DNA of 23,535 nucleotides from contig JAHQXB010000150.1 of the NCBI GenBank assembly GCA_029856435.1, positions 1-23,535 on the forward strand, written 5' to 3'. Below, piece by piece: positions 1-20,719 of the stretch (position 1 is the stretch's first letter; every line of letters begins with the position of its first letter). Both the position numbers and the translations under genes were made by a program. This stretch comes from Candidatus Jordarchaeia archaeon. GTDB lineage: Archaea; Asgardarchaeota; Jordiarchaeia; Jordiarchaeales; Jordiarchaeaceae. Below the pieces are notes generated by a model. The model saw nothing but the letters and a program-made list of their open reading frames with translations. It ran no database searches and was not told the DNA's origin.

Positions 1-124
1 TATTCAGTATGTCGATGGCCGAAATTTTTTTGGCAAGCGCCTGCCTGGCGAGGTCTGCTGCGAGCAAGTCGTCACCTTCAACGAGTGCCTGGGATAGTCT
101 CTCAAGTAGCTCCTTCTCCGACAT
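1..124 (-). CDS. Corrinoid (cobalamin-binding) protein, MtaC/MttC-like; N-terminal cap domain only, running off the left edge
   Basis: Absent from the ORF track. The reverse complement reads GGAGG-7 nt-ATG(124) and translates to MSEKELLERLSQALVEGDDLLAADLARQALAKKISAIDILN..., open to position 1. This matches the B12-binding cap pattern (L..L..A..EGD...A..LA..AL...I.A.DI.N) of methyltransferase corrinoid proteins. An alternative ATG lies at 130. Confidence 0.85.
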   Translation of the reverse strand, partial: MSEKELLERLSQALVEGDDLLAADLARQALAKKISAIDILN

Positions 125-187
125 AAGCATCCCTCCAAGGTCTTGTATCCCTATGGGGAATATTTTCTTTTAATTTAGTTTTTCTTT

Positions 188-195
188 TATATAAA
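188..195 (-). promoter_or_regulatory. Putative archaeal TATA box for the corrinoid protein gene
   Basis: TTTATATA on the minus strand, preceded by a purine-rich AAAGTAAAG, about 65 nt upstream of the ATG at 124. The surrounding spacer is very AT-rich, so specificity is limited. Confidence 0.35.
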
Positions 196-374
196 CTTTA
201 CTTTGTATAACAATTTTTATTTTTTTAACTCTTTGGCTTGTTTTTATGAATTTTTATAATTTTACATTGTTAATTTGATAAATTTTCAATATTTTTACCA
301 ATTTTTGGAAAAAGTAAAATTAGGCTCCAAGAGCATTTGGGTAGCGTTTCGAGGATGTGTAGGTTTTTGTTTTT

Positions 375-3300
375 TCATTTCTCTTCGGCTTCTTGTTTTT
401 CTTTGATGGTTTTTTCTTTTCCCACTATTATTTCGTCTATTCTGAGGATGGTTTCTGCTGTTTCGTTTGCTGATTTTATGATTTGTTTTTTGAGGCTTAG
501 GGGTTCTAGGATTCCCATGTTTTTTGTGTCTGCTAGTTTTCCTTGCTGGGTTATTCCTATCCACCTGTTTTTGGGGTCTTGGTGTAGGGTTCTGAGCTGG
601 GTTAGGGAGTCTGTGGGGTTTAATCCGGCATTTTCGGCTAGGGTTTTGGGTATTGCTTCTAGGGCTTTTGCGTATCTTTCTATGGCTAGTTGTTCTTTTC
701 CGAAAAAGTTCTTTGCGTATCTTTTTATTTCTTTGGCGAGTTCCATTTCTGTTGCTCCGCCTCCTGCCACCACCTTTCCCTCTAAAGTTACTATTTTGAG
801 AATTTTTAGTAGGCTGAGAAGCGTTCCTTCAGCTTCACTTATTATTTCCGGAGTAGCTCCCCTGATTAGAATAGTTGCGCATTTTGAACTTGGGAGTTGG
901 ACAAACACCTTTTTCTTTTCGCCGATTTTTTTCTCCTCTACTACTTTTGCAGTTACAAGATTTTCTTCCTTTAGATCGTTGAGGTCGGTTACGATTTTTC
1001 CATCTGTAGCTTCAGATATCATTTTGAGGTCTATGCTTGGTAATTGTGTGACGGTTAAAATTCCGTATTTGGTGAGGAAGTGCTCTGTTAACTCGTCCAC
1101 GATTTTTGTGGATAACACCACATTGGCTCCAGTATTCTTTATTTTCTCCACCATCTCTTCTGCCAGTTTGTTCAGTGTATCCATGTAGATGTCGTAATTC
1201 TTGGTGTTTTCTATGCGGACTTCCAGTTTTCTTCTGAAATTCTGCTGGGAGACTCTTAACCAGCAATCCAGCAGTGCTATTTTAGCCTGTTCAACCCTTT
1301 TGGGCATCTTGGGATTGACAACTTCTCTTTCCAGGATTACTCCAGAAAAGAGTTCGCTTTCATCTAGGCTTCTGCCCTTCTCTCCCAAAATCTTAATTTT
1401 TCTAAGGTCTATATTTGAGATGTCTTTTTCCCCTGTGAGGATTTCTATTGCCCTAGCCGCCATTTCTGCGAATAGTTCTTTTCTCTCCGGAAGCCTCCCA
1501 CCTATAGTGGTTAGGGCGATTTCCTTCAGAGTTTCTTGATCCTCACTGTTTATGGGTAGAGCCATTAGGTTTAGGAGCTCTAAAGTTTTTTGGGTGGCTT
1601 TTCGGTAACCATTTATTACTACTGTGGGGTGTATTTTTTGGCTCAGTAACTCTTCCGCATTTTTTAGTAATTCTCCCGCAAGGATGACGCTGGCCTTGGT
1701 TCCGTCTCCCAAGTTTTTGCTTTGGGTGTCTGTGAGGTCGACCAGCATTTTTGTCGCGGGGTGTTGAAGGTACATGAAAGCCAAAATTGTTGCTCCATGG
1801 CTAGTATATTTTAGGCTTCCTATATTATCTATGAGGAGCTTATTTCTTCCCCTAGGGCCGAAGCATGGCTTTACAGCGTCGGCTATGATGGTGAAAGTGG
1901 ATATGTTGTTAAGTATGGTTTCGAAGTCTTTTTCATGAGTCTTGACCTCTTTAAGGGGGTGGAGGTATTCCAGCTCTTCAGATTCTTTTTCGGTTAATTT
2001 TTCGGCTGCAATTATATCATTGATTCTGAGAATCGTGGTTGCGGCTTCATATGCGGATTTGAGTGCCTGCGTTTTCACTGATAGGGACTCGTAAACTCCC
2101 AAGGGTTTTAGGTTTTTGGTTTCACCGTCAATAACATCAATTCCCGCATAGATTTCTCCACATTCATGTTTCATTCTCAACTCTGCAGTCTTGGCTAAAA
2201 CGTCGAGCCCCAAATTCTTAGCAAGCAAGGCTGGTAAGGCTTCCAAAGCCTCTGCAAATGCTATGAGCACCAACTGCTCCTTCCCCTCGCTGCGCGCTTT
2301 GTTTCGGATTCTTTTTGAAACTTCAGCTTCTACGGCGCCCCCTCCCACCAATATGGCTGGATTTTCAAAGACTTCTTTTAATACCAAAACTGCATCGCGC
2401 ACTGCCCTCTCTGCCTCATCAAGGGCGCTTTGGGCAGCTCCCCTAAGGAGAACGGTTAAGGCCAGCGGATTTTTACAATCCTCAACAACTATTATTCTTT
2501 CTTCCCCAAATTCTCTCTCCCTAACCACACCCGCGTTTCCCAAATCTTCCAAAACAAGATCATTAATGTCTGCAACTACTTGGGCTCCAGTGGCTGAGGC
2601 AATCTTTTGAATTCTGGATTTTTCCACCCACTCAGCAGCCAGAATCCCCACACTGGCCAGATGGTACTTGACCAGGTCATCTATGCCCTTCTCTGAAAAA
2701 ACCACATTCACTCCCAATTGGGTCAACCTATTGACCATTTGCCTAAGCATACTTTCTTCTTCTTGCAGAAAGTCTATTATCTGCTCTGGCTTTTTCACCA
2801 TGATTTTGGTGTCAAACTCGGTTTTTTCAATTTCCAGAGGGCAGCTTAGCACAGCTATCTTCGCATTTACAACTTTTTTGGGCATCCCTCTATGAGTGAC
2901 CTCTTTATTTACTATTATACCCCTAATCAATTCACTATCTGTGACCACGCCTCCCAACCTTTTCTCAACAGCGATTTTTTTAACATCAACAACAAACTTT
3001 TTGCCAGCCCTTCTTGTAATCTGCGAGACAGCATCCACTACTATTCCCGATAGATGCTCACCCTCTTCATGGTCAAATTTACCAGTTATGACGCTAGTTG
3101 CTACTTTTTTCAAAATTTCCTTTTCAGCTGTGTTGATGGGAATTGCTATCTCTTCTAGAACTTTCAAGGTTTCTCTGAGGGCCACGGAATAGCCCCTAAT
3201 TATGGTTGCAGGGTGAACTCCCATATTAACTAATTTTTCTGCTCCACCCAGCATTTCACTCGCTAGGATGACGATGGTCTTTGTCCCATCCCCAAATTCT

Positions 3301-3575
3301 AAGTCCTGTGTCTTAACTGCGTCCTTAAGGACTCTAACTGCAGGGTGGCCTCCCCCCACTCTGTCCAAAATTGTAAATCCATCCCTTGTCATAGCAACCT
3401 CCCCCTTATCATTTACAATGAGTTTACTCAGACCCATGGGGCCAAATGAACCCTTAATAAAATCTTCTATAGTCCTCACTATTGTAACATTTTCCCGTAT
3501 AGTCGACCATTTTCCCGAAAGATCAGAAGAGTATCCATCTTCCAGCATTTTTAATCCCTTTGCGTGAGGCAGCAT
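375..3575 (-). CDS. Tandem-fused group II chaperonin (thermosome/TCP-1 family), two full domains, 1066 aa
   Basis: Domain 1 (aa ~1-524): SFGPMG, TRDGFTIL, GDGTKT, LLRGA..AERAVRDA, GGGAVE, ILRINDII. Domain 2 (aa ~545-1055): CFGPRG, TSHGATIL, GDGTKA, LIRGA, GGGATE, ILRIDEII. The acidic linker EKLTEKESEELE contains no stop or frameshift. An alternative start ATG lies at 3548. Confidence 0.93.
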   Translation of the reverse strand: MLPHAKGLKMLEDGYSSDLSGKWSTIRENVTIVRTIEDFIKGSFGPMGLSKLIVNDKGEVAMTRDGFTILDRVGGGHPAVRVLKDAVKTQDLEFGDGTKTIVILASEMLGGAEKLVNMGVHPATIIRGYSVALRETLKVLEEIAIPINTAEKEILKKVATSVITGKFDHEEGEHLSGIVVDAVSQITRRAGKKFVVDVKKIAVEKRLGGVVTDSELIRGIIVNKEVTHRGMPKKVVNAKIAVLSCPLEIEKTEFDTKIMVKKPEQIIDFLQEEESMLRQMVNRLTQLGVNVVFSEKGIDDLVKYHLASVGILAAEWVEKSRIQKIASATGAQVVADINDLVLEDLGNAGVVREREFGEERIIVVEDCKNPLALTVLLRGAAQSALDEAERAVRDAVLVLKEVFENPAILVGGGAVEAEVSKRIRNKARSEGKEQLVLIAFAEALEALPALLAKNLGLDVLAKTAELRMKHECGEIYAGIDVIDGETKNLKPLGVYESLSVKTQALKSAYEAATTILRINDIIAAEKLTEKESEELEYLHPLKEVKTHEKDFETILNNISTFTIIADAVKPCFGPRGRNKLLIDNIGSLKYTSHGATILAFMYLQHPATKMLVDLTDTQSKNLGDGTKASVILAGELLKNAEELLSQKIHPTVVINGYRKATQKTLELLNLMALPINSEDQETLKEIALTTIGGRLPERKELFAEMAARAIEILTGEKDISNIDLRKIKILGEKGRSLDESELFSGVILEREVVNPKMPKRVEQAKIALLDCWLRVSQQNFRRKLEVRIENTKNYDIYMDTLNKLAEEMVEKIKNTGANVVLSTKIVDELTEHFLTKYGILTVTQLPSIDLKMISEATDGKIVTDLNDLKEENLVTAKVVEEKKIGEKKKVFVQLPSSKCATILIRGATPEIISEAEGTLLSLLKILKIVTLEGKVVAGGGATEMELAKEIKRYAKNFFGKEQLAIERYAKALEAIPKTLAENAGLNPTDSLTQLRTLHQDPKNRWIGITQQGKLADTKNMGILEPLSLKKQIIKSANETAETILRIDEIIVGKEKTIKEKQEAEEK

Positions 3576-3978
3576 TTTTTTAAACCGTACAGTTTCAAGT
3601 TATGACACATCAAATTTAGACCATACAAGCTAAAATATATTGTTAGCCTTTTTCATCGTATTTCACTACTTAAGGTCTAAAGACTCATTTTTCTACGAAG
3701 GCGCTCTGATTTATGATAAATGCGAAAAATCTTTTTTCCACTACCCAAAAATCTAGGTTCATTTGGTATTTGTTTTTCTGGCCCTTTCCCCATTTTATGT
3801 TTGGATTTTTACACAAAAGTTTGGTAAAAATTATAAGCCAAAATAAACAGAAAATTAGTATTATACCCTCTCGCAAAAACAGAAGTCCAGTACTGAATGT
3901 TAAAAATAGAGGGTGGTTCCACAAAAGTAACCTGTAAGTAAATGAGTTACAGTTGCTTAGAAAGGGAGGTAGTTTGGT

Positions 3979-4902
3979 TTGTATGTTTTTGAGAAGGAAC
4001 AGAAGGTTTGGAACATTAATGGTGTAAAGATAGGTGGTCCGCCGGGGGCTCATCCCACGGTTTTGATTGGAAGCATCTTCTACGATAAGCACAAAATTGT
4101 TTCCGACAGACAGAAGGGAATATTCGACAAGAAAAAGGCAGAAGAGTTAATCAATAAGCAGGACGAGATGGCTGAGAAAACCGGGAACCCTTGCATAGTG
4201 GATATTGTGGGTGACACCGCGGAAGCTCTCATAAAACACATTGACTTTGTGGCCTCAGTGACCAACGCTCCGTTTCTGGTGGACAGCACCATTGCAGCTT
4301 CCCGGCTGGAAGCAATCAAACACGCTGTTGAAGTGGGTCTGGGGGAGAGAGCCATCTACAACTCCATAGATGTGCACTCCAAGGAAGATGAGCTTAACAC
4401 CCTCAAGGAAATCGGTGTAAAGTCTAGCATGTTGCTGGTATTTAGTCCCAAAGCATTGCTGCCCGAAGGTAGAATAGAACTGCTAAAAGGTTCAAGCCAG
4501 GAAAAGGGGTTAATTCAGAAGGCCCAGGAAGCAGGAATACAGAACATTCTTGTGGACACAGCAGTTCTGGATGTTGTGAGCATATCCTTCGCAGCCCAAA
4601 CCATATATTCTGTGAAGAAAGAGTTTGGTCTCCCCGCCGGTTGTGGGCCTTCTAACGCGATTACTGCTTGGAAAAAAATTAAGAAAGACTTTCCACCAGA
4701 ATCCTACAAGGCATGCCTATCCGGCTCCGTGCTGGTAACTGTAATGATGGGAGCTGACTTCGCCCTATACGGGCCAATTGAAGAGGCCACATCGGTTTTC
4801 CCCGCCTGCGCCATGGTCGACGGCCTTATCGCATATTACAACAAAAGAAAGTACAAGATACAGCCAGAATCCCCAACACACCCCTTAACCAAAATATTCT
4901 AA
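3979..4902 (+). CDS. mtrH: MtrH-family methyltransferase (stand-alone MtrH/MtgA-like, methyl-corrinoid:pterin methyltransferase)
   Basis: N-terminus FEKEQKVWNINGVKIGGPPGAHPTVLIGSIFY, plus NPCIVD, PFLVDS, IYNSI, LVDTAV, GLPAGCGPSNA and GADFALYGPIE, all characteristic of the MtrH family. TTG start with GGAGGT 8 nt upstream. No other mtr subunit genes in the window. Confidence 0.9.
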   Translation: MYVFEKEQKVWNINGVKIGGPPGAHPTVLIGSIFYDKHKIVSDRQKGIFDKKKAEELINKQDEMAEKTGNPCIVDIVGDTAEALIKHIDFVASVTNAPFLVDSTIAASRLEAIKHAVEVGLGERAIYNSIDVHSKEDELNTLKEIGVKSSMLLVFSPKALLPEGRIELLKGSSQEKGLIQKAQEAGIQNILVDTAVLDVVSISFAAQTIYSVKKEFGLPAGCGPSNAITAWKKIKKDFPPESYKACLSGSVLVTVMMGADFALYGPIEEATSVFPACAMVDGLIAYYNKRKYKIQPESPTHPLTKIF

Positions 4903-4939
4903 GTCCACTTTCCATGAAAAAAGGGGCGAGGTGGTTGAT

Positions 4940-5296
4940 GTGGGTAAAATTGCTGTTTTACTTTTTACTACACCCTTGCAGTTTCAGAATTCGGACACTG
5001 CGATTGAGTTTATAAAAGCGGCTGTTGAGAAGGGTCACGAGGTTACTGTTATTGGTCTGGGAGACGGCGTTTATAATGCCGTGAAACATTTCATTGTACA
5101 AGATATGCCTTCTCCCGTTGGCAAATTCAAGGAGCTTAGTGAGAGGGGAGTAAAGTTTGTTAACTGCTTCCCTTGCTGCACTGCCCGTGGATTAAAACCG
5201 GAAACAGACTTTATTCCCACTGCAACAATAGAAAGCACCACCACTGTCCTTGAAATCATAAAGGAAGCTGACCGGTTCTTCGCCATTACAATATAG
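4940..5296 (+). CDS. dsrE: DsrE/TusD-family sulfurtransferase subunit
   Basis: KIAVLLFTTP, GHEVTVIGLGDGVYN and VNCFPCCTARG (conserved Cys region). GTG at 4940 follows GAGGTG; the ORF track starts at 4931. Confidence 0.85.
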   Translation: MGKIAVLLFTTPLQFQNSDTAIEFIKAAVEKGHEVTVIGLGDGVYNAVKHFIVQDMPSPVGKFKELSERGVKFVNCFPCCTARGLKPETDFIPTATIESTTTVLEIIKEADRFFAITI

Positions 5297-5311
5297 AGAG
5301 GAGTTGTGAAG

Positions 5312-5668
5312 ATGAGAATATTGTTCATAATTAGGAAACCCCCATTCGGCTGGATTCACATTGTTGAAGCTCTCAGATTGGCAGCTGCAGGAGGCTCTCT
5401 TGCAATTCCAGTCACTCTCCTTTTCATCGATGATGGTGTTTATTGCCCCATGAAGAACCAGTTTCCAAAGGCTATCGGATATTCAGCCATAGACCGATTT
5501 CTGAGAATGCTGCAGAACTTCGAGTCGAAATTATACGTGGTTGGGGAGTCCATGGAAGAGAGAGGACTAACTATGGAGGACTTAAACCCTGCTCTGAATG
5601 TTGAGAGTGTGACTTTAAAAGATGTTGCAAAAATCATTGCGCAAAACGACATTGCCATGACCTTCTGA
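5312..5668 (+). CDS. dsrF: DsrF/TusC-family protein
   Basis: ILFIIRKPPFG..EALRLA, VTLLFIDDGVYC, ESMEERGL. ATG at 5312 lies 8 nt after GAGGAG; the ORF track starts at GTG 5306. Confidence 0.85.
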   Translation: MRILFIIRKPPFGWIHIVEALRLAAAGGSLAIPVTLLFIDDGVYCPMKNQFPKAIGYSAIDRFLRMLQNFESKLYVVGESMEERGLTMEDLNPALNVESVTLKDVAKIIAQNDIAMTF

Positions 5669-5679
5669 GGTGGTTAGAC

Positions 5680-6018
5680 ATGGCAACGCTTATACTGGTA
5701 TCCAAATCTCCCTACATAACGAAGGATAATTTGTACGCCCTTGAAACCTCCCTGAATTTGAAGAAGATGAACGAGGAAGTGGGAGTACTACTAATTCAGG
5801 ACGCGGTGCTCAGTGGCATCCAGGGACAGAGGGGACAAGTAGAAGAACTTTTAAGAAAAAACCTTGAAGTGGGCGTTAACATCTACGCATTGAAACCTGA
5901 TGCCCAAGCCAGAGGAATTCCAGAGGGGAGAATGATAAAAGGCATACAGCTTGTAGACTATGGAGAATGGGTCGACCTCACAATGGAAAAATACCAAAAA
6001 ATTGTAAGTTGGACTTAA
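5680..6018 (+). CDS. dsrH: DsrH/TusB-family protein
   Basis: LILVSKSPY, VLLIQDAV, YALKPDAQARGI, VDYGEWVDL. Third gene of an E-F-H trio, with a GAGGTGG RBS. Confidence 0.85.
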   Translation: MATLILVSKSPYITKDNLYALETSLNLKKMNEEVGVLLIQDAVLSGIQGQRGQVEELLRKNLEVGVNIYALKPDAQARGIPEGRMIKGIQLVDYGEWVDLTMEKYQKIVSWT

Positions 6019-6313: not shown

Positions 6314-6739
6314 TTGGAAGCTGTGATTAGAATTCCAAGGGATGTTGCCAATCTTTTTAATAATCCGGAAACAGTAAAGGTTTTGGTGACTTTAAACCAG
6401 CATGGTGTTCCCCACTGTGTGCCTATAAGCTCCCTCTCAATCCCGTCCTCAGACATCATTGCTTTCGCTGTAATCATGGCGGATGAAACCCACAGAAACT
6501 TACTAAACAATCCAGATAAAGTAGTGGCCGCTACTGCTGTGAGGGGGTTCCAGAGTTACCAGATAAAGGCGAAACCCCAAGAATACGTGACTGAAGGGGC
6601 GGCCTTTGATGCCTTCAGGCAAAGATTCGGAGGCATCATTATGGGTTCGGGGCTTGAAATCAAGGGGGTATGGATCTTAAAACCTTTAGAAATCTACGAC
6701 CAATCAATTGGTTCTGATGCGGGAAAAAGAATAGTATAA
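6314..6739 (+). CDS. Pyridoxamine 5'-phosphate oxidase-like FMN-binding split-barrel protein
   Basis: KVLVTLNQHGVPHCVPISS, ETHRNLLNNP, YQIKA and EIYDQSIGSDAGKRI fit the archaeal PNPOx-like family. TTG start with GGTGA 8 nt upstream. Confidence 0.8.
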   Translation: MEAVIRIPRDVANLFNNPETVKVLVTLNQHGVPHCVPISSLSIPSSDIIAFAVIMADETHRNLLNNPDKVVAATAVRGFQSYQIKAKPQEYVTEGAAFDAFRQRFGGIIMGSGLEIKGVWILKPLEIYDQSIGSDAGKRIV

Positions 6740-6799
6740 ATTCAGACTCATTTCCGTGTATTCTAGGCTAATATGAGGATTTGGAAGTTGGAGGTTTTG

Positions 6800-8494
6800 T
6801 TGGGTAAAGACACATCTCCAATATTTAAGCCTGCGTATAGGCAGGAACGCGACTTTAATGTAAAGGTTCTCAAAAGTAACATTATGGTAGCTAGGATAGT
6901 CTCCCATATCATAAGTAACACTATAGGGCCTTATAGTGTGAGCAAAGCAATCCTCAAAAAAGACGGAGAAGTTTTGATAACTGGTGATGCCTTCAGTATA
7001 TTGGGTACTCTCAAGGTGGAGCACCCCATAGCCAAGATTCTGATTGGTATGGCTAAGGCTCAGAACGCCATTGTGGGAGACGGTGTTGCTACCGCAGTAA
7101 TTTTGGCAGGTGAGCTACTTAAAAAGGCAGAAATCCTAATTGACCAAGGGCTTCTTCCCTCAAATATTTCAAAAGGATACGACCTGGCGTTGAAAAGGGC
7201 GGTTCAAAGATTAGAAGAAATAGCTATTCCCATAAGGCTTGATGATGAGGAGATTTTGAGAAGGCTGGCTTACACCGCCATAAACACAAAGGTTATCGGT
7301 TCCCATGAAACAATAAACGATTTCAGCAATATGGCCCTGGAATTAGCCAAATTTGCCTGTGAAAATGAGACTGGAGCAAGGTTAAACCTTGAGGACGTAA
7401 AAATTGTTAAAAAGAGAGGGGGCATCCTAGGAGATTCTAGGGTTGTGGATGGCTATGTTATAGATGATAGAGAAATAGTTCATCCAGATATGCCCAGAAG
7501 AGTTGAGAACGCAAATATTGCTCTAGTGAGAAGCCTAGAATTAAAAGAAATCACTGGGAGTTGGTGGGAAGCAGCGGGAAAAAATATGGAAATACAAGTT
7601 GAAGAACTAGAAGCGCACCAAGCCTTCCTTGAGGAGAGGAGAAATTTAGTTAAACAAATGGTGAGCAAACTGGTTCTGCATGGAGTTAACGTGGTTCTTG
7701 TAAATAGGGGCGTAGATGAAATAACTGAACACTACCTTGCAAGGGCAGGAATTTTGACCGTTAAACGCGTTTTTCTCGAGGACATGAATAGGATTAGTAG
7801 GTTGACTGGAGCGCACATAGTGTCTGACTTGATGAGTGACTACTTGACAGCTGACAGGTTGGGGCGAGCCAAATTGGTGGAGGAATGGATACCATCCGAA
7901 AAAGAAAAATATATCCTGATTACTGGTTGTCCAGGTCGGGGAGCTTCAAGTGTTATTATAAGGGGTGGAAACCAGTACGCCTTGGAAGAAGCCGAAAGAG
8001 GTCTCTATGATGCTCTCCAAGTGGTAAGGAATATTAGGGAAGATCCTCGCATTATTCCGGGTGGAGGGGCTTCAGAGATGGAACTTTCCAAGTGTCTGAA
8101 GGAGTATGCCCAGACATTTAGCGGGAAGGAGCAGCTGGCTATTTTGGCCTTTTCTGAAGCTTTACGAATTGTGCCCCAAACTTTGGCAGACAATGCGGGG
8201 CTAGATTCGCTTAATGCTTTGGCAGATCTTAGGGTGAAACACAGTGAGGGAGTGGTTTGGGCGGGATTAGATGTGAACCGGGGCAAAGTTGATGATATGG
8301 AAAAAGTGGGAATCCTTGAGCCAATAAAGGTGAAGGTTCACGCTCTAAACGCTGCTACAGATGTTGCCCGAATTGTACTACGAATTGATGAAGTGATACC
8401 CGCGAGAGGATTCAAGAAGGAAGAGGAACCCAAGCCTGAAACAGAAAAAAGGGCAGCAGAAGCACTAAAAAAAGTGTACGATTTAGAACTATAA
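6800..8494 (+). CDS. Divergent group II chaperonin (thermosome subunit paralogue)
   Basis: TIGP, TGDAFSIL, GDGVATAVILAGELL, HPDMPRRVENA, IIRGG..AERGLYDA, PGGGASE, VLRIDEVI. Likely TTG start at 6800 after GGAGG (6790-6794); the ORF track starts at 6773. Confidence 0.92.
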   Translation: MGKDTSPIFKPAYRQERDFNVKVLKSNIMVARIVSHIISNTIGPYSVSKAILKKDGEVLITGDAFSILGTLKVEHPIAKILIGMAKAQNAIVGDGVATAVILAGELLKKAEILIDQGLLPSNISKGYDLALKRAVQRLEEIAIPIRLDDEEILRRLAYTAINTKVIGSHETINDFSNMALELAKFACENETGARLNLEDVKIVKKRGGILGDSRVVDGYVIDDREIVHPDMPRRVENANIALVRSLELKEITGSWWEAAGKNMEIQVEELEAHQAFLEERRNLVKQMVSKLVLHGVNVVLVNRGVDEITEHYLARAGILTVKRVFLEDMNRISRLTGAHIVSDLMSDYLTADRLGRAKLVEEWIPSEKEKYILITGCPGRGASSVIIRGGNQYALEEAERGLYDALQVVRNIREDPRIIPGGGASEMELSKCLKEYAQTFSGKEQLAILAFSEALRIVPQTLADNAGLDSLNALADLRVKHSEGVVWAGLDVNRGKVDDMEKVGILEPIKVKVHALNAATDVARIVLRIDEVIPARGFKKEEEPKPETEKRAAEALKKVYDLEL

Positions 8495-8520: not shown

Positions 8521-10407
8521 TCAACTATGATTTTCTAAATATTTCTTTACGGAGGGGTATCTTTCAAGGTGTTTGTATGGAATGAGTGTGGATTTTACGA
8601 ATTCTCTTTGAAAGTTGGGTTCCGCCATCAGTTCCACGTATCTTATCCATCGGGACAACTTTTGTGCAGTTTTTCGGACTTCCCTTGATAGTAGAGCCAT
8701 TTTAGCTCCTGCAAGAGCAGTGTTTCCCGCAAAAGTAATTTTTTCGGTGGGAACATCAGGAATCAAGCCTAGAAACTTTGCACTCTCCGGATCAATGTAG
8801 TTTCCAAAGGCGCCAGCTATGAAAACCCTATCTATGTCCTCCTCTGTCACCGCTTTCTTTTCCATGAGAATGGCGCAGCCGGTATGTATGGCCGCCTTGG
8901 CCAACTGTACTTCTTCGATGTCTTTCAGGGAGACGGTTATATTTTTTTCAATAGCCGTTTCCTCCTTCCAAGCAATTACAAATTCCGGTTTTCCCTCCAC
9001 TCTAATCATCCTCACAGTATCTACATCGTTGAACTTCCCCCTCTCTGATATGATTCCACACTTAAACATTTCAGCCACAGCATCAATTACTCCAGAACCA
9101 CATATCCCCACTGGTTTCACTCCATCTATTGTTGCATATTTAACCTCAAAGGTTTTGGGATCGATTCTTATTCTTTCAATGGCTCCCGACACTGCCTTCA
9201 TGCCGTGTTGTATGTGTACTCCCTCAAAGGCGGGGCCTGCAGCACAAGAACAGGAAACAATGTCTTCTCTATTTCCCACAAAAACTTCACCGTTGGTTCC
9301 AACATCCACAAGTAAACACATCTCGTCCATTTCGTGAATGTTAGTTGCCAACACGTCGCCAACAGCATCTGCACCCACGTATCCCGCAATATTGGGTAAA
9401 GCATAAACACTTGCCCTGGGATTAGCGTTTATACCGAGTTCCTGGGTCTTCACCACAACCGGGCCTTTTACTCCCGGAACGTAGGGTGCCAAGTGTAAAT
9501 ATTTTGTTTGGATACCCAGAAACAGGCTGAGCATGGCGGTGTTTCCAACAACTGTCAACTCATAAATTTCACTTTGTTTGATTCCCGATTCTCCACAAGC
9601 AGTCTGGACTATTTTATTGATGCCTTCTATTGCCAGTGTTTGTAGTCTTCTTCTTTTTTCGGGGCTTTCCTCAGCATAGGATATTCGGGACAAAATGTCT
9701 TCTCCAAAGGCAATCTGGGGATTTTCCAAGGAGCCAAGCCCCACAACCTCGCCACTATTTAGGTTAACCAGATATCCCACAATTTTGGAAGTGCCAATAT
9801 CTACTGCAAATCCAAAATTTCTCGATGTAGTGTCTCCCGGCTCTAAATCTATTACTTTGTGGTCATTTAACAGGGTAACTGTTATGTTCCAATTTCCCTC
9901 CCTAATAGTGTCAGGAAGATTTTTAATGAGTTCGTATTCCCACTCTAAACCTCGGAGGCCGTATACCTTTTCCAGATGGGTTAAGATGTTTAAATCGTCT
10001 GCGACGGGATTTTGTACCGTAGGCTTTTCCAATACCAAATTTATTTTTCTGATATTAGGGTCCAGTTTTACTGGCTGCTCCATTCCTTGAATCTGTATCC
10101 TCCGAACACTTAATCGACTTTCGCTTGGAATTACTACAGTTAAATCTCGACGAATTGAAACCATACAAGCTAGACGATACCCCTTGCTAATTTCCTCTGG
10201 TGTTAGGTGCTCCTTCTCCGCTTCGCTTATCTCACTTAAGTGGAGCTGATTCGCAATTATTACCCTACATTTTCCGCATTTTCCCTTCCCACCGCATTCG
10301 GAACGTATTCCGATTCCCCCTCCTTTTGCCACTTCCAATATGGTGGACGCATCAACGGCAGACAACTTTTTACCTTCTGGTTCGAACCGTACAGTAAATC
10401 TTTTCAT
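8521..10407 (-). CDS. ASKHA-domain reductive activator of corrinoid proteins (RACo type) with N-terminal [2Fe-2S] ferredoxin
   Basis: CGGKGKCGKC...RLAC 2Fe-2S motif, plus DIGTS, VGNTAM, DVGTNGE, CAAGPAFEG, GICGSG, AGAFG and GNTALAGA. GGAGG RBS. 628 aa. Confidence 0.92.
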   Translation of the reverse strand: MKRFTVRFEPEGKKLSAVDASTILEVAKGGGIGIRSECGGKGKCGKCRVIIANQLHLSEISEAEKEHLTPEEISKGYRLACMVSIRRDLTVVIPSESRLSVRRIQIQGMEQPVKLDPNIRKINLVLEKPTVQNPVADDLNILTHLEKVYGLRGLEWEYELIKNLPDTIREGNWNITVTLLNDHKVIDLEPGDTTSRNFGFAVDIGTSKIVGYLVNLNSGEVVGLGSLENPQIAFGEDILSRISYAEESPEKRRRLQTLAIEGINKIVQTACGESGIKQSEIYELTVVGNTAMLSLFLGIQTKYLHLAPYVPGVKGPVVVKTQELGINANPRASVYALPNIAGYVGADAVGDVLATNIHEMDEMCLLVDVGTNGEVFVGNREDIVSCSCAAGPAFEGVHIQHGMKAVSGAIERIRIDPKTFEVKYATIDGVKPVGICGSGVIDAVAEMFKCGIISERGKFNDVDTVRMIRVEGKPEFVIAWKEETAIEKNITVSLKDIEEVQLAKAAIHTGCAILMEKKAVTEEDIDRVFIAGAFGNYIDPESAKFLGLIPDVPTEKITFAGNTALAGAKMALLSREVRKTAQKLSRWIRYVELMAEPNFQREFVKSTLIPYKHLERYPSVKKYLENHS

Positions 10408-10598
10408 TAATTAGCCTCCGAAAAATAATTAAAGATGATGTTATCTCCCTGTTTATTAATTTTTATAAGTAGCTCGGTCTAATAATTTATTTCATAAATT
10501 CGATTCTCACTTTACAATAAGTTTATGTTTTACCATTCTTCGATTTCTATATTCATTAATATTCACTTTTCCGTAATATTCTATGTGATGGGATTTTT

Positions 10599-10979: not shown

Positions 10980-12548
10980 CTGAGTAAAGATAAAAGGGAA
11001 GAGACGGAGTTTGCCGAGGAGACTACAGAGAAAATCGTAATTAAGAGAGTTATTTTAAAACCCGACGAGTTTAGAGCGGCTTTAGAAAAAATTAAGGGTA
11101 TCGTTGGGGCGGAAAATGTTTCTGATGATCCTTTAGATTTAATCTGTCATGAAAGAGATCTATACACTCCGGTCAGTAAACGTTTCCTGGGATCTGTTGC
11201 AACACCGGCGATGGTTGTGAGGCCAAAGAATACGGAAGAGGTTCAGGGGGTTGTTAGAATAGCTAACGAATACAAGATTCCCATAACTCCCTTCTCTTTC
11301 GGAACAAATATGGGTGGTGCTGCTGTTCCGAGCGTTGAAGGTGCCATTCTGCTCGATCTTAGGAGAATGAACCGAATAATTGAGATTAATGAGGAGACTA
11401 TGACAGCCACCATTGAACCTGGGGTTTCTTATGGGAGGCTGGATTACGAGGCTAGGAAGAAGGGTTTAAGAACCGTTTCTACCATAGGTGGATATACTGG
11501 AGGGCTGATAGGCAATTTCGTTACAGCAAATGTGAGGCCCTTTAATGCTATGTTCGGTTTTTCTGATCCTATTGTAACAATGGAAGTTGTGCTACCAACT
11601 GGGGAGGTTCTGAGAACCGGTTCTATGGCATATCCCGGTTATGAAGACGCTAACCCCTATGTGAGGTTGGCTTGGGGACCAGATTTTGCTGGGCTATTCA
11701 GGGGTAGTGCTGGTGCTTTTGGTGTGGTAACCAAGGCTGTTGTGAAACTTTATCCCGCAGGTGAAATTGAGAAACGTTTGAAATTTGCTTTTCCAGATCT
11801 AGATTCACTTTTGGAGGCAATGAAAAAAACTCAAAGAAATGAAATAGGTAGAGCAGTTTTGGGCATTGATCGGAACGAGATATTTTTTGTATGTACCGAG
11901 AGAGGCGAGAGAGAAAACATGTCCAAAGAGGAGTGGCTGAAAACTTATAAGAGCTTTCCCGAATGGGCTATGCTAATAAATTTGGAAGAACGAAAAGAAA
12001 TTGTGGAGGCTGACGAGAAACTGTTAAGAAAAATCTGTGAAGAATATGGGGGTAAAGAGCTAGAACTGCCTCCTAGATACGCGGAGTCTCTGGACGATTT
12101 TTCAACTCATAGGGGCAGAATGATAATGCACAGTCTAGTTATCCCCAGTATGATTTGCTTATGGACATGCACACCTGCAAACAACATTAAAGCCTTTTAT
12201 AATAAAACTTTGGAAGTTTTAAAGAAGTTGGACATGAGGTTTCCTCTATTCAAGGATATATTCAACCCGGGTCGATGGTTCCTAATACCTTTTGATAGAG
12301 GAAATACCTATATGATTGGCGTGGATGTGGATTTTGACACTCTTGATGAAGAACAGTTAAAAAAGGCTATGGAGTTTCTCTTGTCCTACATTTCACTAAT
12401 GACCGAGGTTAAAGGCACCATACCTATGACCATGGGTCCATTGGTTGATATGCTTATGCCCTCCTATAGCAAATTGATTAAATCAATTAAGAAGATGCTT
12501 GACCCAAATGACATTTTTAGTCCTAATAGATTGTGCTTAGTGGGGTAA
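10980..12548 (+). CDS. FAD-binding oxidoreductase (VAO/GlcD/D-lactate dehydrogenase superfamily)
   Basis: VVRPKNTEEV, PFSFGTNMGG, LDLRRMNRIIEI, IEPGV, VVLPTGEVLRTG, GAFGVVTK, LDPNDIFSP. The frame is open for 77 codons upstream of the track's ATG (11211), back to CTG 10980, with a GGAGG RBS. The extension encodes the family-typical IVGAENVSDDPLDL..H.RD segment. Confidence 0.88.
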   Translation: MSKDKREETEFAEETTEKIVIKRVILKPDEFRAALEKIKGIVGAENVSDDPLDLICHERDLYTPVSKRFLGSVATPAMVVRPKNTEEVQGVVRIANEYKIPITPFSFGTNMGGAAVPSVEGAILLDLRRMNRIIEINEETMTATIEPGVSYGRLDYEARKKGLRTVSTIGGYTGGLIGNFVTANVRPFNAMFGFSDPIVTMEVVLPTGEVLRTGSMAYPGYEDANPYVRLAWGPDFAGLFRGSAGAFGVVTKAVVKLYPAGEIEKRLKFAFPDLDSLLEAMKKTQRNEIGRAVLGIDRNEIFFVCTERGERENMSKEEWLKTYKSFPEWAMLINLEERKEIVEADEKLLRKICEEYGGKELELPPRYAESLDDFSTHRGRMIMHSLVIPSMICLWTCTPANNIKAFYNKTLEVLKKLDMRFPLFKDIFNPGRWFLIPFDRGNTYMIGVDVDFDTLDEEQLKKAMEFLLSYISLMTEVKGTIPMTMGPLVDMLMPSYSKLIKSIKKMLDPNDIFSPNRLCLVG

Positions 12549-12550
12549 CT

Positions 12551-13696
12551 ATGGAGCTAAGTAAATATATACGGGAATTTGAACTATGCGTGAAATGCTC
12601 TTTCTGTCAAGAGGATCCTATAACCCATTTGCCTATTTGTCCGGAGGCTGAAAGGTTCGGTTTTGAATCATACCGTCCTTCGGGACTTATGGAGCTTGCT
12701 CGTGCACTAGCTCATAGGAACATAGGGTTGTCCGAGGGGCTGGCTAAGCGTTTCTACTCTTGTCTAACCTGTGGGGCTTGTGACAAACTGTGTTATTCTC
12801 TAACCGGGAAGCGTCCCCTAAATCTGTTCCTAGAAACAAGAAGGGTTCTAGTTAAGAGTGGATTTGGACCAATGCCCGGGCAATTGGAGGCTACAGTGAA
12901 TGTACTATCGACTTCAAACCCCTACGGAAAGCCAAAGGATCAGAGGTTCAAATGGGTCAAGGAAGCTATTCCCAACAAAGCTGAAATAGTTTACTTTGCG
13001 GGATGTACTCCATCATATTATTTTCCAGAACAAGCCCAGTCAACGCTAAAGGTTTTGAAGGCTGCGGGAATAAAGTTTGCTATCATGCCTAATGAACGGT
13101 GCTGTGGTTATACAACAATTATGACTGGACAAGACGACGCCGCCATGGATATTGTGACGGGCAATGTTAAATATATCAAAGAAACTGGGGCCAAAACACT
13201 ATTGACTAGTTGTGCTATGTGTTATAAGATTTTCAACCAGGATTATTTTAAATTAGCAGGAGAAAAAATGGATTTTGAAGTGACACATACTTCCCTGTTT
13301 TTCAATGACCTTGTCAATGAGAACAAGTTAAAGTTAAAGAAGCCAATTTCTGAAACAATAACTTACCATGATCCTTGCAACCTTGGGAGACTGAATAATG
13401 TTTATGATGAACCGAGAAACCTAATTGAGCAGATCCCGAAAACTCAACTGGTTGAAATGGAGAGAAACCGAGGAAGTGCTTGGTGCTGTGGAGCAGGTGG
13501 GGGAGTAAAATTCGCTTTTCCGGATTTTGCAAATTGGACTGCAATTGAACGATTGAAAGAAGCACAATCCACTGGTGCGAAATTATTAGTTTCAGCATGT
13601 CCCGAGTGTGAGCTTAACTTCATGGATTCACTAAAGACAATTGATAAAAAGATTAAAATTCAAGACGTTAATCAAATATTAGCAATGTCTCTTTAA
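12551..13696 (+). CDS. (Fe-S)-binding protein, HdrD/GlcF/GlpC-like (2x[4Fe-4S] plus two CCG domains)
   Basis: CVKCSFC...CP, CLTCGACDKLC, YFAGC, ERCCG, SCAMC, YHDPCNLGR, WCCGAGGG, ACPEC. ATG 12551 lies 2 nt after the previous stop; the track starts at 12533. Confidence 0.88.
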   Translation: MELSKYIREFELCVKCSFCQEDPITHLPICPEAERFGFESYRPSGLMELARALAHRNIGLSEGLAKRFYSCLTCGACDKLCYSLTGKRPLNLFLETRRVLVKSGFGPMPGQLEATVNVLSTSNPYGKPKDQRFKWVKEAIPNKAEIVYFAGCTPSYYFPEQAQSTLKVLKAAGIKFAIMPNERCCGYTTIMTGQDDAAMDIVTGNVKYIKETGAKTLLTSCAMCYKIFNQDYFKLAGEKMDFEVTHTSLFFNDLVNENKLKLKKPISETITYHDPCNLGRLNNVYDEPRNLIEQIPKTQLVEMERNRGSAWCCGAGGGVKFAFPDFANWTAIERLKEAQSTGAKLLVSACPECELNFMDSLKTIDKKIKIQDVNQILAMSL

Positions 13697-14884: not shown

Positions 14885-15955
14885 TTGGTTAAGAAGATTG
14901 TAGCGCTTGGTGGAGATGGAATCGGTCCTGAGGTGGTTGATGCTGCAGTTCAAGTTTTGGAAAGTATGGGCTTAGATATAGAGATACAAAAACCCTTGTG
15001 TGGAGAAGTGGCAATAAAAAGGTTTGGAACGCCTTTTCCTAAGGAAGCCATGGAGTTAACAAATGAGTCTGATGCAATACTCTTCGGGGCAACCGAGCAA
15101 GCCAGTGTTTTTATCCTAGCCTATTTGAGATGGGGACTTGACACCTACGCAAACCTGAGACCCATAAAGTATTATGAGGGTGTGCCAACCCCCATAAAGG
15201 ATCCCGAAGGAATAGATTTCCTCATAGTTAGGGAAAATTCTGAGGGACTCTATCCCGGAAGGGAGGGAGACCTGTCGCTACTTGCAGAGAAGCTTCCGGA
15301 TTATAGGGACCGCTTAGGAAAATCTTTTGCAGACTATGGGCCGGGAAAATTCGCCATAAGAGTTTTCACCAATAAGGGGTGTCAGAGAATAGCAAAGTTT
15401 GCCTGCGAAAAGGCAAGAGAGCGGAAAGCTAAAGGATTTCCAGGAAAGGTGACCTGCGTCACAAAGTCAAATGTTCTCAGAGAAAGCTGTGGACTGTTTC
15501 AAAAAACCTGTGAAGAAGTGATAAAGAACTATCCCGAACTGAAATATGAACACTTCTACGTTGACGACATGGCCAGGAGAATAATTAGATTTCCCAAGGA
15601 CATGGATGTTATCGTCACCTCCAACATGTTTGGAGACATCCTCTCAGACCTAGCAGCTGAACTAATGGGCGGGTTGGGCATGGCCCCCAGCGCATGCATA
15701 GGCGATAAATATGCCTACTTTGAACCGGTACACGGCTCGGCTCCAGACATAGCGGGAAAGGGTATCGCGAATCCCACTGCAAGCATTCTATCCTCGGTCT
15801 TAATGCTGGACTATTTAGGTATGAAGGATAAAGCCGAAGAGTTGGAGAACGCAGTGAAGGCTGTTTATAAAGAAGGGAAGGTCTTGACTCCCGACATGGG
15901 AGGAAAAGCGAAAACCACAGATTTTACCCGGGCTGTCATTGAGAAGTTAAAATAA
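14885..15955 (+). CDS. Isocitrate/isopropylmalate (beta-hydroxyacid decarboxylating) dehydrogenase, LeuB/AksF/HICDH-like
   Basis: [65 protein letters not shown] start. Substrate not assignable. Confidence 0.92.
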
Positions 15956-15972
15956 GTTTTGGAGGATCCAAT

Positions 15973-17226: not shown

Positions 17227-17241
17227 GGAGATGAAAAATGA

Positions 17242-17754
17242 ATGAATGTGATAAAGGGAAAAGTTTGGAAGTTTGGAGACAATATTGATACTGACATAAT
17301 ATCTCCATCCAAATACATAGAGGCCTCAATGGACGAACAAGTGAAGCACGTCATGGAGGCTATAAATCCGAAATTTCCCCAAGAAGTGAAACCGGGAGAT
17401 ATCATAGTTGCGGGAAGAAACTTCGGCTGTGGCTCAAGCAGAGAAACGGCACCAGACCTGATAAAGAGACTGGGAATAGCAGCAGTTGTTGCGGAGTCTT
17501 TTGCCCGAATATTTTTCCGAAACTCAGTAGCCATCGGCCTACCCATACTAGTATGCCCAAAAGTCTCTGAAGCATTCAGTGAGGGAGACACCCTAGAACT
17601 GGACTTGGAAAAAGCCATCGTTAAAAATACAACCAAAAACATCACACTAGAGGGAATCCCCTTATCCCTAGACATGCTCAAAGTCCTAGAAAAGGGGGGA
17701 ATACAACCACTTCTCAAAGAGATGGCACAAGCCCAAAAATTAACTATTAAATGA
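17242..17754 (+). CDS. leuD: 3-isopropylmalate dehydratase/homoaconitase-family small subunit (LeuD/HacB type)
   Basis: GKVWKFGDNIDTD, AGRNFGCGSSRE, AESFARIFFRN..GLP. The symbol is a family label. Confidence 0.9.
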   Translation: MNVIKGKVWKFGDNIDTDIISPSKYIEASMDEQVKHVMEAINPKFPQEVKPGDIIVAGRNFGCGSSRETAPDLIKRLGIAAVVAESFARIFFRNSVAIGLPILVCPKVSEAFSEGDTLELDLEKAIVKNTTKNITLEGIPLSLDMLKVLEKGGIQPLLKEMAQAQKLTIK

Positions 17755-18965: not shown

Positions 18966-19132
18966 TTATTTCACCAAAATCGGGTGTTTCCAAAGAATGT
19001 CCCCACGGTATTTGGGGTTACGATTTTTATTTCATTTACAATTTTCCTTTCAGATTTGATTTTTTACGTTATTTTTATATTTTAAACTTGTGATAGTGTT
19101 TTCTGCCCTAAATTCTTATGGGGTGTGTGTTT

Positions 19133-20581: not shown

Positions 20582-20719
20582 CAAGCCAAAAATTTGGGGG
20601 CCGCCTTACCTCAGCGTGGAAGGACTCTTAGATAAGTGAGGGCTGATAATTGTTTCGTTAGTTTTATATCCTAAAATGAATAAAATGTGTTTCGCATTTG
20701 TTCTCTGGGATGAGTCATC

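What the first reader, a model, noticed from the sequence alone, without database searches (positions are those of the whole stretch)
375..3575. Natural head-to-tail fusion of two complete, non-identical group II chaperonin subunits
One uninterrupted 1066-aa ORF holds two full TCP-1/thermosome folds joined by a ~20-aa acidic linker (nt ~2003-1941). The halves are clearly divergent from each other, so this is not a collapsed repeat. Known archaeal thermosome and eukaryotic CCT subunits are normally single-domain, with N- and C-termini close together in the equatorial domain, so a fusion is structurally feasible (established). Inference: the fusion hard-wires an alternating A-B order in the ring, giving (AB)4, or (AB+C)3 with the third chaperonin at 6800-8494. 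That would be a prokaryotic route to fixed subunit order, as in CCT.
Basis: partly seen in the sequence, partly recalled or inferred. Interest (0 to 1): 0.82.

Follow-up and report, generated by a model that had tools for sequence, protein, structure and literature searches.

The report
Natural two-unit fused archaeal chaperonin
An Asgard archaeon (Jord/Freyarchaeia group) makes two different subunits of its ring-shaped protein-folding machine as one conserved 1066-residue chain, and the second unit has lost the residue needed to burn ATP; this fusion is very rare in nature, fixes two subunits as permanent partners, and I found no report of it.

Summary
Window 375-3575 (-) is one uninterrupted 1066-aa ORF with two complete group II chaperonin units that are 36% identical, joined by a flexible acidic linker of about 27 residues.

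It is not an assembly artefact:
- Independent contigs from four runs cross the junction without gaps.
- Five of six genomes of the genus carry it, one of them closed.
- About 12 orthologues (63-88% identity) keep the architecture.
- dN/dS is 0.16-0.20 in both units and in the linker.

A distant relative has the same two paralogues as separate adjacent genes in the same order and frame, so the gene arose by fusion of neighbours. A second, very divergent fused lineage (labelled Njordarchaeota, 33-37% identity) shares the same locus layout: the fused gene faces an MtrH-DsrE-DsrE-DsrH-third chaperonin operon.

New here: the C unit has lost the catalytic Asp in all 14 Jord orthologues (S921 here), while the N unit keeps it (D394). 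An exhaustive search of 1.84 billion representative proteins found only these two clusters of double-unit proteins.

Ring order, (AB)4 or (ABC)3, remains untested inference, and I found no specific kinship to CCT subunits. This scan had already noted the same fusion on other genomes.

The parts
375..3575 (-). Fused two-unit group II chaperonin gene (P0001, 1066 aa)
   Evidence: Uninterrupted ORF with two full PF00118 domains. Orthologues of 1053-1076 aa at 63-88% identity. Junction-spanning contigs in 4 runs.
2016..3575 (-). N unit (residues 1-520), with the ATP-site acidic residues intact: D65, D96, D386 and the catalytic D394 (nt 2394-2396)
   Evidence: Motif table and residue mapping. Numbering anchored on the Thermococcus KS-1 chain 1q3r_A. 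Groups with N units of all fused proteins and with the stand-alone L040 gene 1.
1935..2015 (-). Linker (residues 521-547, Glu/Lys-rich)
   Evidence: AF2 pLDDT below 50. Length is conserved to within 0-2 residues and the sequence is conserved in 14 Jord orthologues. dN/dS is 0.13-0.16.
378..1934 (-). C unit (residues 548-1066), fold intact but acidic residues replaced: S921 at the catalytic Asp position (nt 813-815), S913 at the D385 position, H593 at the D64 position (nt 1797-1799)
   Evidence: All 14 Jord C units have S or N at the catalytic position. dN/dS is 0.17-0.19. The AF2 unit matches closed thermosome subunits.
3576..3978 (.). Divergent intergenic region between the fused gene and the MtrH operon (presumed promoters on both strands)
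   Evidence: Gene layout. The same divergent layout occurs in G117, G119, L041, L042 and L043. Promoters were not tested.
3979..4902 (+). MtrH/MtgA-like methyl-corrinoid:pterin methyltransferase
   Evidence: PF02007, 338 bits. NCBIfam MtrH family, 343 bits.
4931..6018 (+). Three small DsrE/DsrE/DsrH-like (TusBCD-like) genes: 4931-5296, 5306-5668, 5680-6018
   Evidence: PF02635 and PF04077. Same order in L041, L042, L043 and G117.
6314..6739 (+). Small ORF with a weak PNPOx-like match, not conserved in the distant loci
   Evidence: PF01243 at 23 bits, below its cut-off. Absent between DsrH and the chaperonin in G117 and in L042/L043.
6773..8494 (+). Third chaperonin subunit (P0002, 573 aa). It keeps D72, D103 and the catalytic D413 but has unusual nucleotide-site motifs (GDGVAT, GPYSVSK)
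   Evidence: PF00118, 481 bits. Motifs. Orthologous to the chaperonin that ends the same operon in L042/L043 (SH-aLRT 99).
8521..10407 (-). RACo-type reductive activator of corrinoid proteins, a conserved neighbour within the genus
   Evidence: RACo_C_ter, Raco_middle, RACo_linker and Fer2 domains. Same position in the closed genome G117.

Best explanation
The gene encodes a covalent heterodimer of two old accessory thermosome paralogues. I call them N-type and C-type; they are distinct from this genome's two canonical thermosome genes. The pair first existed as adjacent genes in the same order. Loss of the stop codon and the short spacer then joined them. Most likely mechanism (inferred): both units fold as normal group II chaperonin subunits and occupy neighbouring positions in one ring. 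The C-terminal strand of unit 1 and the N-terminal strand of unit 2 both lie on the inner equatorial wall, and a flexible linker of about 27 residues connects them. This enforces 1:1 stoichiometry and a fixed N-to-C neighbour order. It also pairs an ATP-hydrolysing unit (N, catalytic D394) with a unit that can probably still bind nucleotide but not hydrolyse it (C, S921), so catalytic and non-catalytic sites would alternate. The third subunit, encoded at the end of the facing operon, probably assembles with it into a specialised hetero-oligomeric ring. That ring may serve the surrounding corrinoid methyl-transfer proteins. Shown: the gene is real, it is conserved under purifying selection, it arose from a neighbouring gene pair, the catalytic Asp is lost, and synteny with the third subunit is conserved. 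Inferred: ring assembly, in-ring adjacency, participation of the third subunit, and any client specificity.
For: Reality and conservation:
- One ORF with two full PF00118 domains.
- Junction-spanning contigs without gaps in four runs.
- Full length in G000, G117 (closed genome), G119 and G120. In G118 it is broken only by contig ends.
- About 12 orthologous protein clusters of 1053-1076 aa.
- dN/dS 0.16-0.20 in the N unit, linker and C unit for unsaturated pairs.
- Linker length and sequence are conserved.

Fold: AF2 mean pLDDT 85.6. Each unit matches closed thermosome subunits with TM 0.92-0.93.

Origin:
- Contig L040 carries an N-type gene (538 aa) directly followed by a C-type gene (P0028). 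They are on the same strand and in the same frame, separated by TGA TAA plus 18-70 nt depending on the start chosen.
- L040 gene 1 groups with all N units (SH-aLRT 99) and P0028 with all C units (99).
- Fused N units form one clade (support 84) and fused C units one clade (76).

ATP site:
- By ungapped alignment anchored on 1q3r_A, the catalytic Asp (KS-1 D393 = Mm-cpn D386) is kept in 12 of 14 Jord N units. It is replaced by S or N in 14 of 14 C units.
- Stand-alone C-type proteins still have it.
- Replacing this Asp gives ATPase-deficient subunits that still assemble into double rings (PMC5413064; the PDB entries named 'D386A Mm-cpn').

Third subunit: the layout 'fused gene facing MtrH-DsrE-DsrE-DsrH-chaperonin' recurs in G117, G119 and G118 and in three distant loci, L041, L042 and L043. 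The operon's chaperonin is orthologous across them (SH-aLRT 99).

In-ring placement: a cross-ring covalent Thermococcus chaperonin had to be built with circularly permuted subunits (PMC5413064). From my own knowledge, engineered head-to-tail concatemers of Thermococcus KS-1 chaperonin and of GroEL assemble into rings.
Against: No experiment or model here shows a ring, its size or the order of units. AF2 pTM is 0.53, so the relative position of the two units is undefined. A linker of about 27 residues is long enough to reach a cross-ring partner as well. In the distant fused lineage the catalytic Asp is missing from both units and from their third subunit. A ring made only of these parts would have no intact hydrolytic site there, which argues for mixing with canonical subunits or for a role without hydrolysis. 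The genome holds four more chaperonin units, so the actual partners are open. The link to corrinoid genes is weakened because this genome has about 20 B12-binding genes and 4-5 MtrH genes. The conserved block may also simply be inherited or transferred as one piece. I have no RNA or protein evidence.
Confidence: 0.6

Rival explanations
1. Mixed rings. The fused pair, and perhaps the third subunit, is inserted as a double subunit into rings built mainly of the two canonical thermosome subunits. It changes ring properties rather than forming its own complex.
For: The genome keeps two canonical, slowly evolving thermosome genes with all catalytic residues. In the distant fused lineage none of the three accessory units keeps the catalytic Asp, so ATP-driven cycling would need canonical partners.
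Against: The accessory units are only about 42-46% identical to canonical ones and evolve 3-4 times faster. The fused gene and the third subunit are conserved as a pair of neighbours far from the canonical genes.
Confidence: 0.17
2. Cross-ring tether. The two units sit opposite each other across the equator, giving one ring of N units and one ring of C units (an active ring and an inactive ring).
For: Both termini of group II subunits lie near the equatorial septum (established structural knowledge). The ~27-residue flexible linker could reach across. An engineered complex of a wild-type ring and an ATPase-deficient ring of a Thermococcus chaperonin is functional (PMC5413064).
Against: That engineered cross-ring link required circular permutation of the subunits, which suggests the native termini do not favour it. 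From my own knowledge, head-to-tail concatemers assemble within rings. Under this model the third subunit has no obvious place.
Confidence: 0.12
3. No folding ring. The fused protein has left the classical chaperonin cycle and acts as a holdase or assembly factor for the neighbouring methyl-transfer or sulfur-relay proteins, much as the BBS chaperonin-like proteins of animals did.
For: Acidic residues were lost progressively in the C unit here and in all units of the distant lineage. The locus is embedded among MtrH, DsrEFH-like, RACo and, in G117, a corrinoid protein. Stand-alone relatives also lie near URO-D and B12-binding genes.
Against: Both units keep full-length equatorial, intermediate and apical parts with lids, and they model as closed thermosome subunits. 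The GDG and GGG nucleotide-site motifs are kept in both units and the N unit keeps every catalytic residue. Corrinoid genes are so common in this genome that proximity is weak evidence.
Confidence: 0.09
4. Artefact: a mis-assembly, a sequencing error that removed a stop codon, or a decaying pseudogene.
For: The window comes from a metagenome-assembled genome with 5.7% estimated contamination, and the gene lies near a contig end.
Against: The junction is confirmed by independent contigs from four runs. The same architecture is present in a closed genome and in about 12 protein clusters. Purifying selection acts on both units and on the linker.
Confidence: 0.01

Closest known systems
Thermoplasma acidophilum thermosome (PDB 1A6D), alpha/beta subunits alternating in eight-membered rings
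   Same: Two paralogous group II subunits at 1:1 in one complex. The fold of both units matches (TM 0.89-0.90 to 1a6d chains). Strict alternation is the arrangement a head-to-tail fusion would fix.
   Different: There the subunits come from separate genes, order is set by interfaces alone, and both keep the catalytic Asp. Here the pair is one chain and the second unit has lost it.
Sulfolobus/Saccharolobus thermosome alpha/beta/gamma (TF55; PDB 4XCD, 4XCG)
   Same: Three paralogues whose mix decides ring composition. It forms nine-membered rings, and the beta subunit has the same GDGTK-type phosphate loop (ADGTKT in 6xhi) as both units here. An (N-C plus third)x3 ring would resemble its proposed alpha-beta-gamma ring.
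   Different: The genes are separate, the composition is variable and temperature-dependent (my own knowledge), and there is no covalent pairing.
Eukaryotic CCT/TRiC
   Same: A hetero-oligomeric group II chaperonin with fixed subunit order and unequal use of ATP among subunits.
   Different: CCT has eight separate genes, its order is encoded in interfaces, and every subunit keeps the catalytic Asp (each could be mutated in PMC5413064). The units here are not CCT orthologues: best CCT model scores are 388, 351 and 371 bits against cut-offs of 553 to 800.
Engineered covalent chaperonins (Thermococcus KS-1 covalent mutants; GroEL concatemers)
   Same: Subunits are joined in one chain to dictate the arrangement of active and ATPase-deficient units (PMC5413064).
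   Different: These are man-made from identical subunits. The window's protein is natural, joins two old paralogues and is maintained by selection.
F1/V1-ATPase hexamers (analogy only)
   Same: Paralogous catalytic and non-catalytic nucleotide-binding subunits alternate in a ring.
   Different: The fold is unrelated and the subunits are not fused. I cite it only for the logic of an active/inactive pair.

Membership tests
Group II chaperonin (thermosome/CCT family, Pfam PF00118) | Full-length Cpn60_TCP1 domain covering the equatorial, intermediate and apical parts | tested here: met
   It is present twice: residues 36-525 (profile 1-489 of 490, 506 bits) and 564-1053 (476 bits), against a cut-off of 34.3.
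Group II chaperonin (thermosome/CCT family, Pfam PF00118) | Three-dimensional fold with a built-in helical lid, as opposed to the GroES-dependent group I type | tested here: met
   The AF2 model has mean pLDDT 85.6. The best Foldseek matches are closed thermosome and Mm-cpn subunits (TM 0.92-0.93, rmsd about 2 A). Lid helices are modelled at 264-286 and 791-814. GroEL models score only 47-81 bits.
Group II chaperonin (thermosome/CCT family, Pfam PF00118) | ATP-site residues: the Asp of TNDG, the GDGT phosphate loop, the sensor Lys, the GGG motif and the catalytic Asp (KS-1 D393 / Mm-cpn D386) | tested here: not met
   The N unit meets this feature in full (D65, D96, K, D394). The C unit does not. 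It has S921 at the catalytic position, S913 at the D385 position and H593 at the D64 position, although its GDG and GGG motifs are kept. The protein is therefore a member by fold and descent, with one degenerate unit.
Group II chaperonin (thermosome/CCT family, Pfam PF00118) | Assembly into two stacked rings of 8 or 9 subunits with ATP-driven lid closure | not testable with these tools
   No oligomer model of this size could be run. The monomer pTM of 0.53 leaves the orientation between units undefined.
Archaeal thermosome subunit (NCBIfam NF041082/NF041083 equivalogs, TIGR02339 subfamily) | Score above the curated cut-offs | tested here: inconclusive
   Both units pass the NF041082 and NF041083 cut-offs of 450 and 400 (N unit 546 and 541 bits; C unit 508 and 515 bits). 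Both fail the stricter TIGR02339 cut-off of 671 (542 and 503 bits), which the genome's canonical genes pass (794 and 790).
Eukaryotic CCT subunits alpha to theta (TIGR02340-02347) | Score above the cut-off of one subunit-specific model | tested here: not met
   Best scores are N unit 388 (gamma, cut-off 553), C unit 351 (alpha, cut-off 800) and third subunit 371 (delta, cut-off 695). The canonical paralogues score higher on CCT models (535 and 498 bits) than the fused units do. I could not build a tree with CCT sequences.

The most novel reading that the evidence does not exclude
The fused N-C chain and the third subunit form their own genetically hard-wired hetero-oligomeric chaperonin. Catalytic and non-catalytic sites alternate in it (for example (N-C-third)x3 or (N-C)x4), and it is dedicated to folding or assembling the corrinoid methyl-transfer system it is encoded with. 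That would be an independent archaeal solution to the fixed-order, asymmetric-ATPase design otherwise known only from eukaryotic CCT.
Probability: 0.3. Interest if true: 0.82.

Novelty: new variant of a known kind. Interest (0 to 1): 0.66.

Why it matters
How hetero-oligomeric chaperonins acquire a fixed subunit order and an uneven division of ATPase labour is an open question, and it is central to the origin of eukaryotic CCT. This locus offers natural material to test it.

- The same two paralogues exist as separate neighbouring genes with both catalytic sites intact (L040).
- They also exist as a fused chain whose second unit has lost the catalytic Asp (Jord lineage).
- A third form is a fused chain in which all units have lost it (the distant lineage).

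Together these forms suggest a possible evolutionary series (the order of steps is not rooted): duplication, then neighbour specialisation, then covalent locking, then degeneration of one site. The protein can be expressed and imaged directly.

A covalent active/inactive chaperonin pair would also be a ready-made tool for studying allostery within a ring. The finding does not show that this protein is ancestral to CCT. Its narrow distribution argues against that.

Tried and rejected
1. Catalytic Asp assignment. I first took the Asp of the 'VDEAER' motif as the catalytic residue. Counting on chain 1q3r_A showed that the catalytic Asp (KS-1 D393) is eight residues further on, in '..HDAL'. I redid the table. 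The C unit lacks both residues, so the conclusion stands.
2. G304:C127. It was reported with an 'open frame' of 1111 aa, but it is not a fusion. It holds two tandem canonical genes in one frame, separated by stop codons.
3. P0199, P0254 and P0229. These long hits with two matched stretches are single chaperonin domains with inserts of 130-330 residues, not double units.
4. RNA evidence. No RNA holder was listed. Runs X6 and X9 are labelled metatranscriptomic but flagged as probably DNA, so I do not use them as evidence of expression.
5. Two scans of the GTDB species genomes for the distant fused form (P0148, then an alignment of three) found nothing. Its taxon rests only on NCBI's label 'Njordarchaeota' for P0014.
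6. A tree including CCT1-8 could not be built, because no tool supplied eukaryotic sequences by reference. I used NCBIfam CCT model scores instead.
7. Complex prediction was not run. The full chain exceeds the size limit. Any pair of thermosome units would pass by likeness to solved structures, so a pass would not have changed my odds or told paralogues apart.
8. AF2 cannot decide between in-ring and cross-ring placement (pTM 0.53). In the input alignment all single-domain rows fell on the N unit, so the C unit rested on 14 rows.
9. Literature. Seven full-text searches found no description of a natural fused thermosome. Subscription journals are not covered.
10. The GDGTK phosphate-loop variant is not a defect. 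The Sulfolobus beta subunit has it too.
Full report
**Observation**

The window has one uninterrupted ORF on the minus strand, 375..3575, of 1066 aa. Pfam finds two complete Cpn60_TCP1 domains, at residues 36-525 and 564-1053, each covering the whole profile. The two units are 36% identical to each other.

NCBIfam places both nearest to the archaeal thermosome subunit models. They score far below every CCT subunit cut-off and far from GroEL. A third chaperonin gene lies at 6773..8494 on the plus strand.

**Is it real?**

- An independent (Logan) assembly of the probable source run gives a 9285-nt contig. It covers 1483-3700 with one different letter and no gaps.
- Contigs of relatives (~90% identity) from other runs (X2; X6 and X9) also run across the junction at nt 1935-2015 without gaps.
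- The own genome (3.54 Mb, 97.8% complete) belongs to a genus with six species genomes. The fused gene is full length in four of them, including a closed 3.58-Mb genome. In a fifth it is cut only by contig ends. It was not found in the sixth, which is 96% complete.
- A search of 5.8 billion proteins returned about 12 orthologous clusters of 1053-1076 aa at 63-88% identity. Their sources label them Freyarchaeota or Jordarchaeia, that is Asgard archaea.
- dN/dS for the unsaturated genome pairs is 0.16-0.20 in the N unit, 0.13-0.16 in the linker and 0.17-0.19 in the C unit.
- The linker keeps its length to within two residues, and much of its sequence, in all Jord orthologues.

This is a functional, selected gene.

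**How rare is it?**

An exhaustive phmmer search of 1.84 billion representative proteins listed only two clusters that match along the whole two-unit query. One is the Jord cluster. The other is a second cluster at 34% identity, P0148. Other long hits are single domains with large inserts.

No PDB chain contains two units. Among 400 Asgard species genomes from 33 families, only the window's genus has a match at E <= 1e-150. The sister family has three ordinary single-unit genes.

**Origin**

I built maximum-likelihood trees of single units (51 and 54 rows, quick IQ-TREE with a site-mixture model).

- The N units of the Jord proteins group with the N units of the distant fused proteins (P0014, labelled Njordarchaeota; P0015; P0148).
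- The C units group likewise. Each grouping has SH-aLRT 98-99.

A sediment contig, L040, carries the unfused state. An N-type gene of 538 aa is followed on the same strand and in the same frame by a C-type gene (P0028). They are separated by TGA TAA and 18-70 nt, depending on the start codon chosen. L040 gene 1 falls in the clade of N units (SH-aLRT 99) as sister to all fused N units, and P0028 falls in the C clade (99).

In the best tree the fused N units form one clade (support 84) and the fused C units form one clade (76). This fits a single fusion of a neighbouring pair, although the support is modest. The C unit has no stand-alone relative closer than 46% identity.

Given the patchy distribution, the block was either inherited from a deep ancestor and widely lost, or moved between lineages. 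I cannot decide between these.

**Anatomy**

AF2 gives mean pLDDT 85.6. The low-confidence stretches are the N-terminal 19 residues, the two lid tips and residues 521-547. Each unit superposes on closed thermosome or Mm-cpn subunits at TM 0.92-0.93. pTM is only 0.53, so the mutual position of the units is not predicted.

I mapped the ATP-site residues by ungapped alignment and by counting on the Thermococcus KS-1 chain 1q3r_A.

| Position (KS-1 numbering) | N unit | C unit |
|---|---|---|
| D64 | D65 | H593 |
| D95 (phosphate loop) | D96 | D624 |
| D385 | D386 | S913 |
| D393 (catalytic) | D394 | S921 |

- The N unit also keeps the sensor Lys.
- All 14 Jord C units have S or N at the catalytic position. 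Twelve of 14 N units keep the Asp.
- The stand-alone C-type proteins (the P0028 group and P0150) still have the Asp. The loss is therefore seen only in the fused forms.
- In the distant fused lineage both units and the third subunit have lost it (I/Q, K and L respectively).
- Replacing this Asp is the standard way to make ATPase-deficient group II subunits, and such subunits still assemble (PMC5413064; PDB entries titled D386A Mm-cpn).

**Context**

The fused gene faces an operon on the other strand: MtrH/MtgA-like methyltransferase, DsrE, DsrE, DsrH, a weak PNPOx-like ORF and the third chaperonin. A RACo corrinoid activator follows on the opposite strand.

The same layout is present in the closed genome G117, where a B12-binding corrinoid protein follows the fused gene. 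It is also present in G119 and G118. The MtrH-DsrE-DsrE-DsrH-chaperonin operon facing a fused gene also recurs in three distant loci, L041 (contig ends before the chaperonin), L042 and L043. The operon's chaperonin in L042 and L043 is orthologous to P0002 (SH-aLRT 99).

Stand-alone N/C-type genes also lie near URO-D and B12-binding genes. This suggests a functional tie to corrinoid methyl transfer. However, the genome has about 20 B12-binding genes and 4-5 MtrH genes, so I treat client specificity as a hypothesis.

**The genome's chaperonin set**

There are seven units in six genes.

- Two are canonical units that evolve slowly (about 840 bits on the thermosome models).
- Five are fast-evolving accessory units: fused N, fused C, the third subunit, and two more on contigs C70 and C5.
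- Three of the seven lack the catalytic Asp: fused C, C5 and C70.
- None shows a specific affinity to a CCT subunit model. The canonical ones are the most CCT-like.

**Interpretation**

The best-supported reading is a covalent heterodimer of an active and a hydrolysis-dead thermosome unit. It would serve as a building block of a specialised hetero-oligomeric ring, probably together with the third subunit.

In-ring adjacency is inferred from where the termini lie and from engineered precedents. Cross-ring tethering, insertion into canonical rings and a non-ring role remain open. The CCT parallel is an analogy, not kinship.

**Prior knowledge**

Seven full-text searches found no report of a natural fused thermosome. 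Database records simply call these proteins thermosome subunits.

Two earlier notes of this scan, on other genomes, describe the same fusion and reach similar conclusions. I verified the shared points independently. I add the loss of the catalytic Asp, the natural split-gene relative, the orthology of units across the two fused lineages, and the exhaustive rarity count.

Noticed in passing
window 3979-6018 and 8521-10407; L044 (G117) 9866-10513: A corrinoid methyl-transfer set (MtrH/MtgA-like, RACo activator and, in the closed genome, a B12-binding corrinoid protein) plus three DsrE/DsrE/DsrH-like genes is interleaved with the chaperonin genes. The MtrH-DsrEFH-chaperonin operon is conserved even in the very distant fused lineage. 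I know of no described link between a TusBCD/DsrEFH-like trio and MtrH.
   Followed up: partly
window 6773-8494: The third chaperonin keeps the catalytic Asp (D413) but has unusual nucleotide-site motifs: GDGVAT instead of GDGTTT, GPYSVSK instead of GPxGxDK, and TGDA instead of TNDG. It also has a longer lid region. Its orthologue in the distant lineage has lost the catalytic Asp.
   Followed up: partly
G000 contigs C55, C70, C5 (loci L001, L002, L003, L005): The genome carries seven chaperonin units in six genes. The sister family has three candidate genes and other Asgard genomes mostly 2-5 first-look candidates (up to 11). Three units (fused C, C5, C70) lack the catalytic Asp. The C70 type is shared with the sister family.
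   Followed up: partly
L031 (G304:C127) and L040 886-4197: Two cases of tandem thermosome genes in the same reading frame, separated only by stop codons and a few codons. One pair is canonical (G304) and one is the N-type/C-type pair (L040). Both are one or two mutations away from a fusion.
   Followed up: partly
window 1-2000 versus 2001-3575: The part coding for the C unit has lower G+C (0.38-0.43 against 0.45) and a much stronger A excess on the coding strand (AT skew -0.42 and -0.32 against -0.14) than the part coding for the N unit. The C unit is richer in Lys, Leu and Ile and has a net positive charge (+4 against -8).
   Followed up: no
window 22604-23533 (-); L042 5026-6249: A TnpB/IS605 OrfB-like gene runs off the window's end. 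In the distant locus L042 another TnpB-like gene is inserted between MtrH and the fused chaperonin gene.
   Followed up: no
window 19118-22162: Two tandem paralogous genes with CoA-binding and Succ_CoA_lig domains (ADP-forming acyl-CoA synthetase-like), of 487 and 480 aa.
   Followed up: no
window 11211-13696 and 14885-17754: An FAD-binding oxidase followed by a CCG/4Fe-4S protein (a GlcD/GlcF-like or HdrD-like pair). After it comes an isopropylmalate/homoisocitrate dehydrogenase with the large and small aconitase-family subunits.
   Followed up: no
proteins P0199, P0254, P0229: Single-unit group II chaperonins from metagenomes with inserts of about 130-330 residues. In P0199 the insert sits close behind the GDGTTT phosphate loop, a place where inteins are known. 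I did not examine them further.
   Followed up: no
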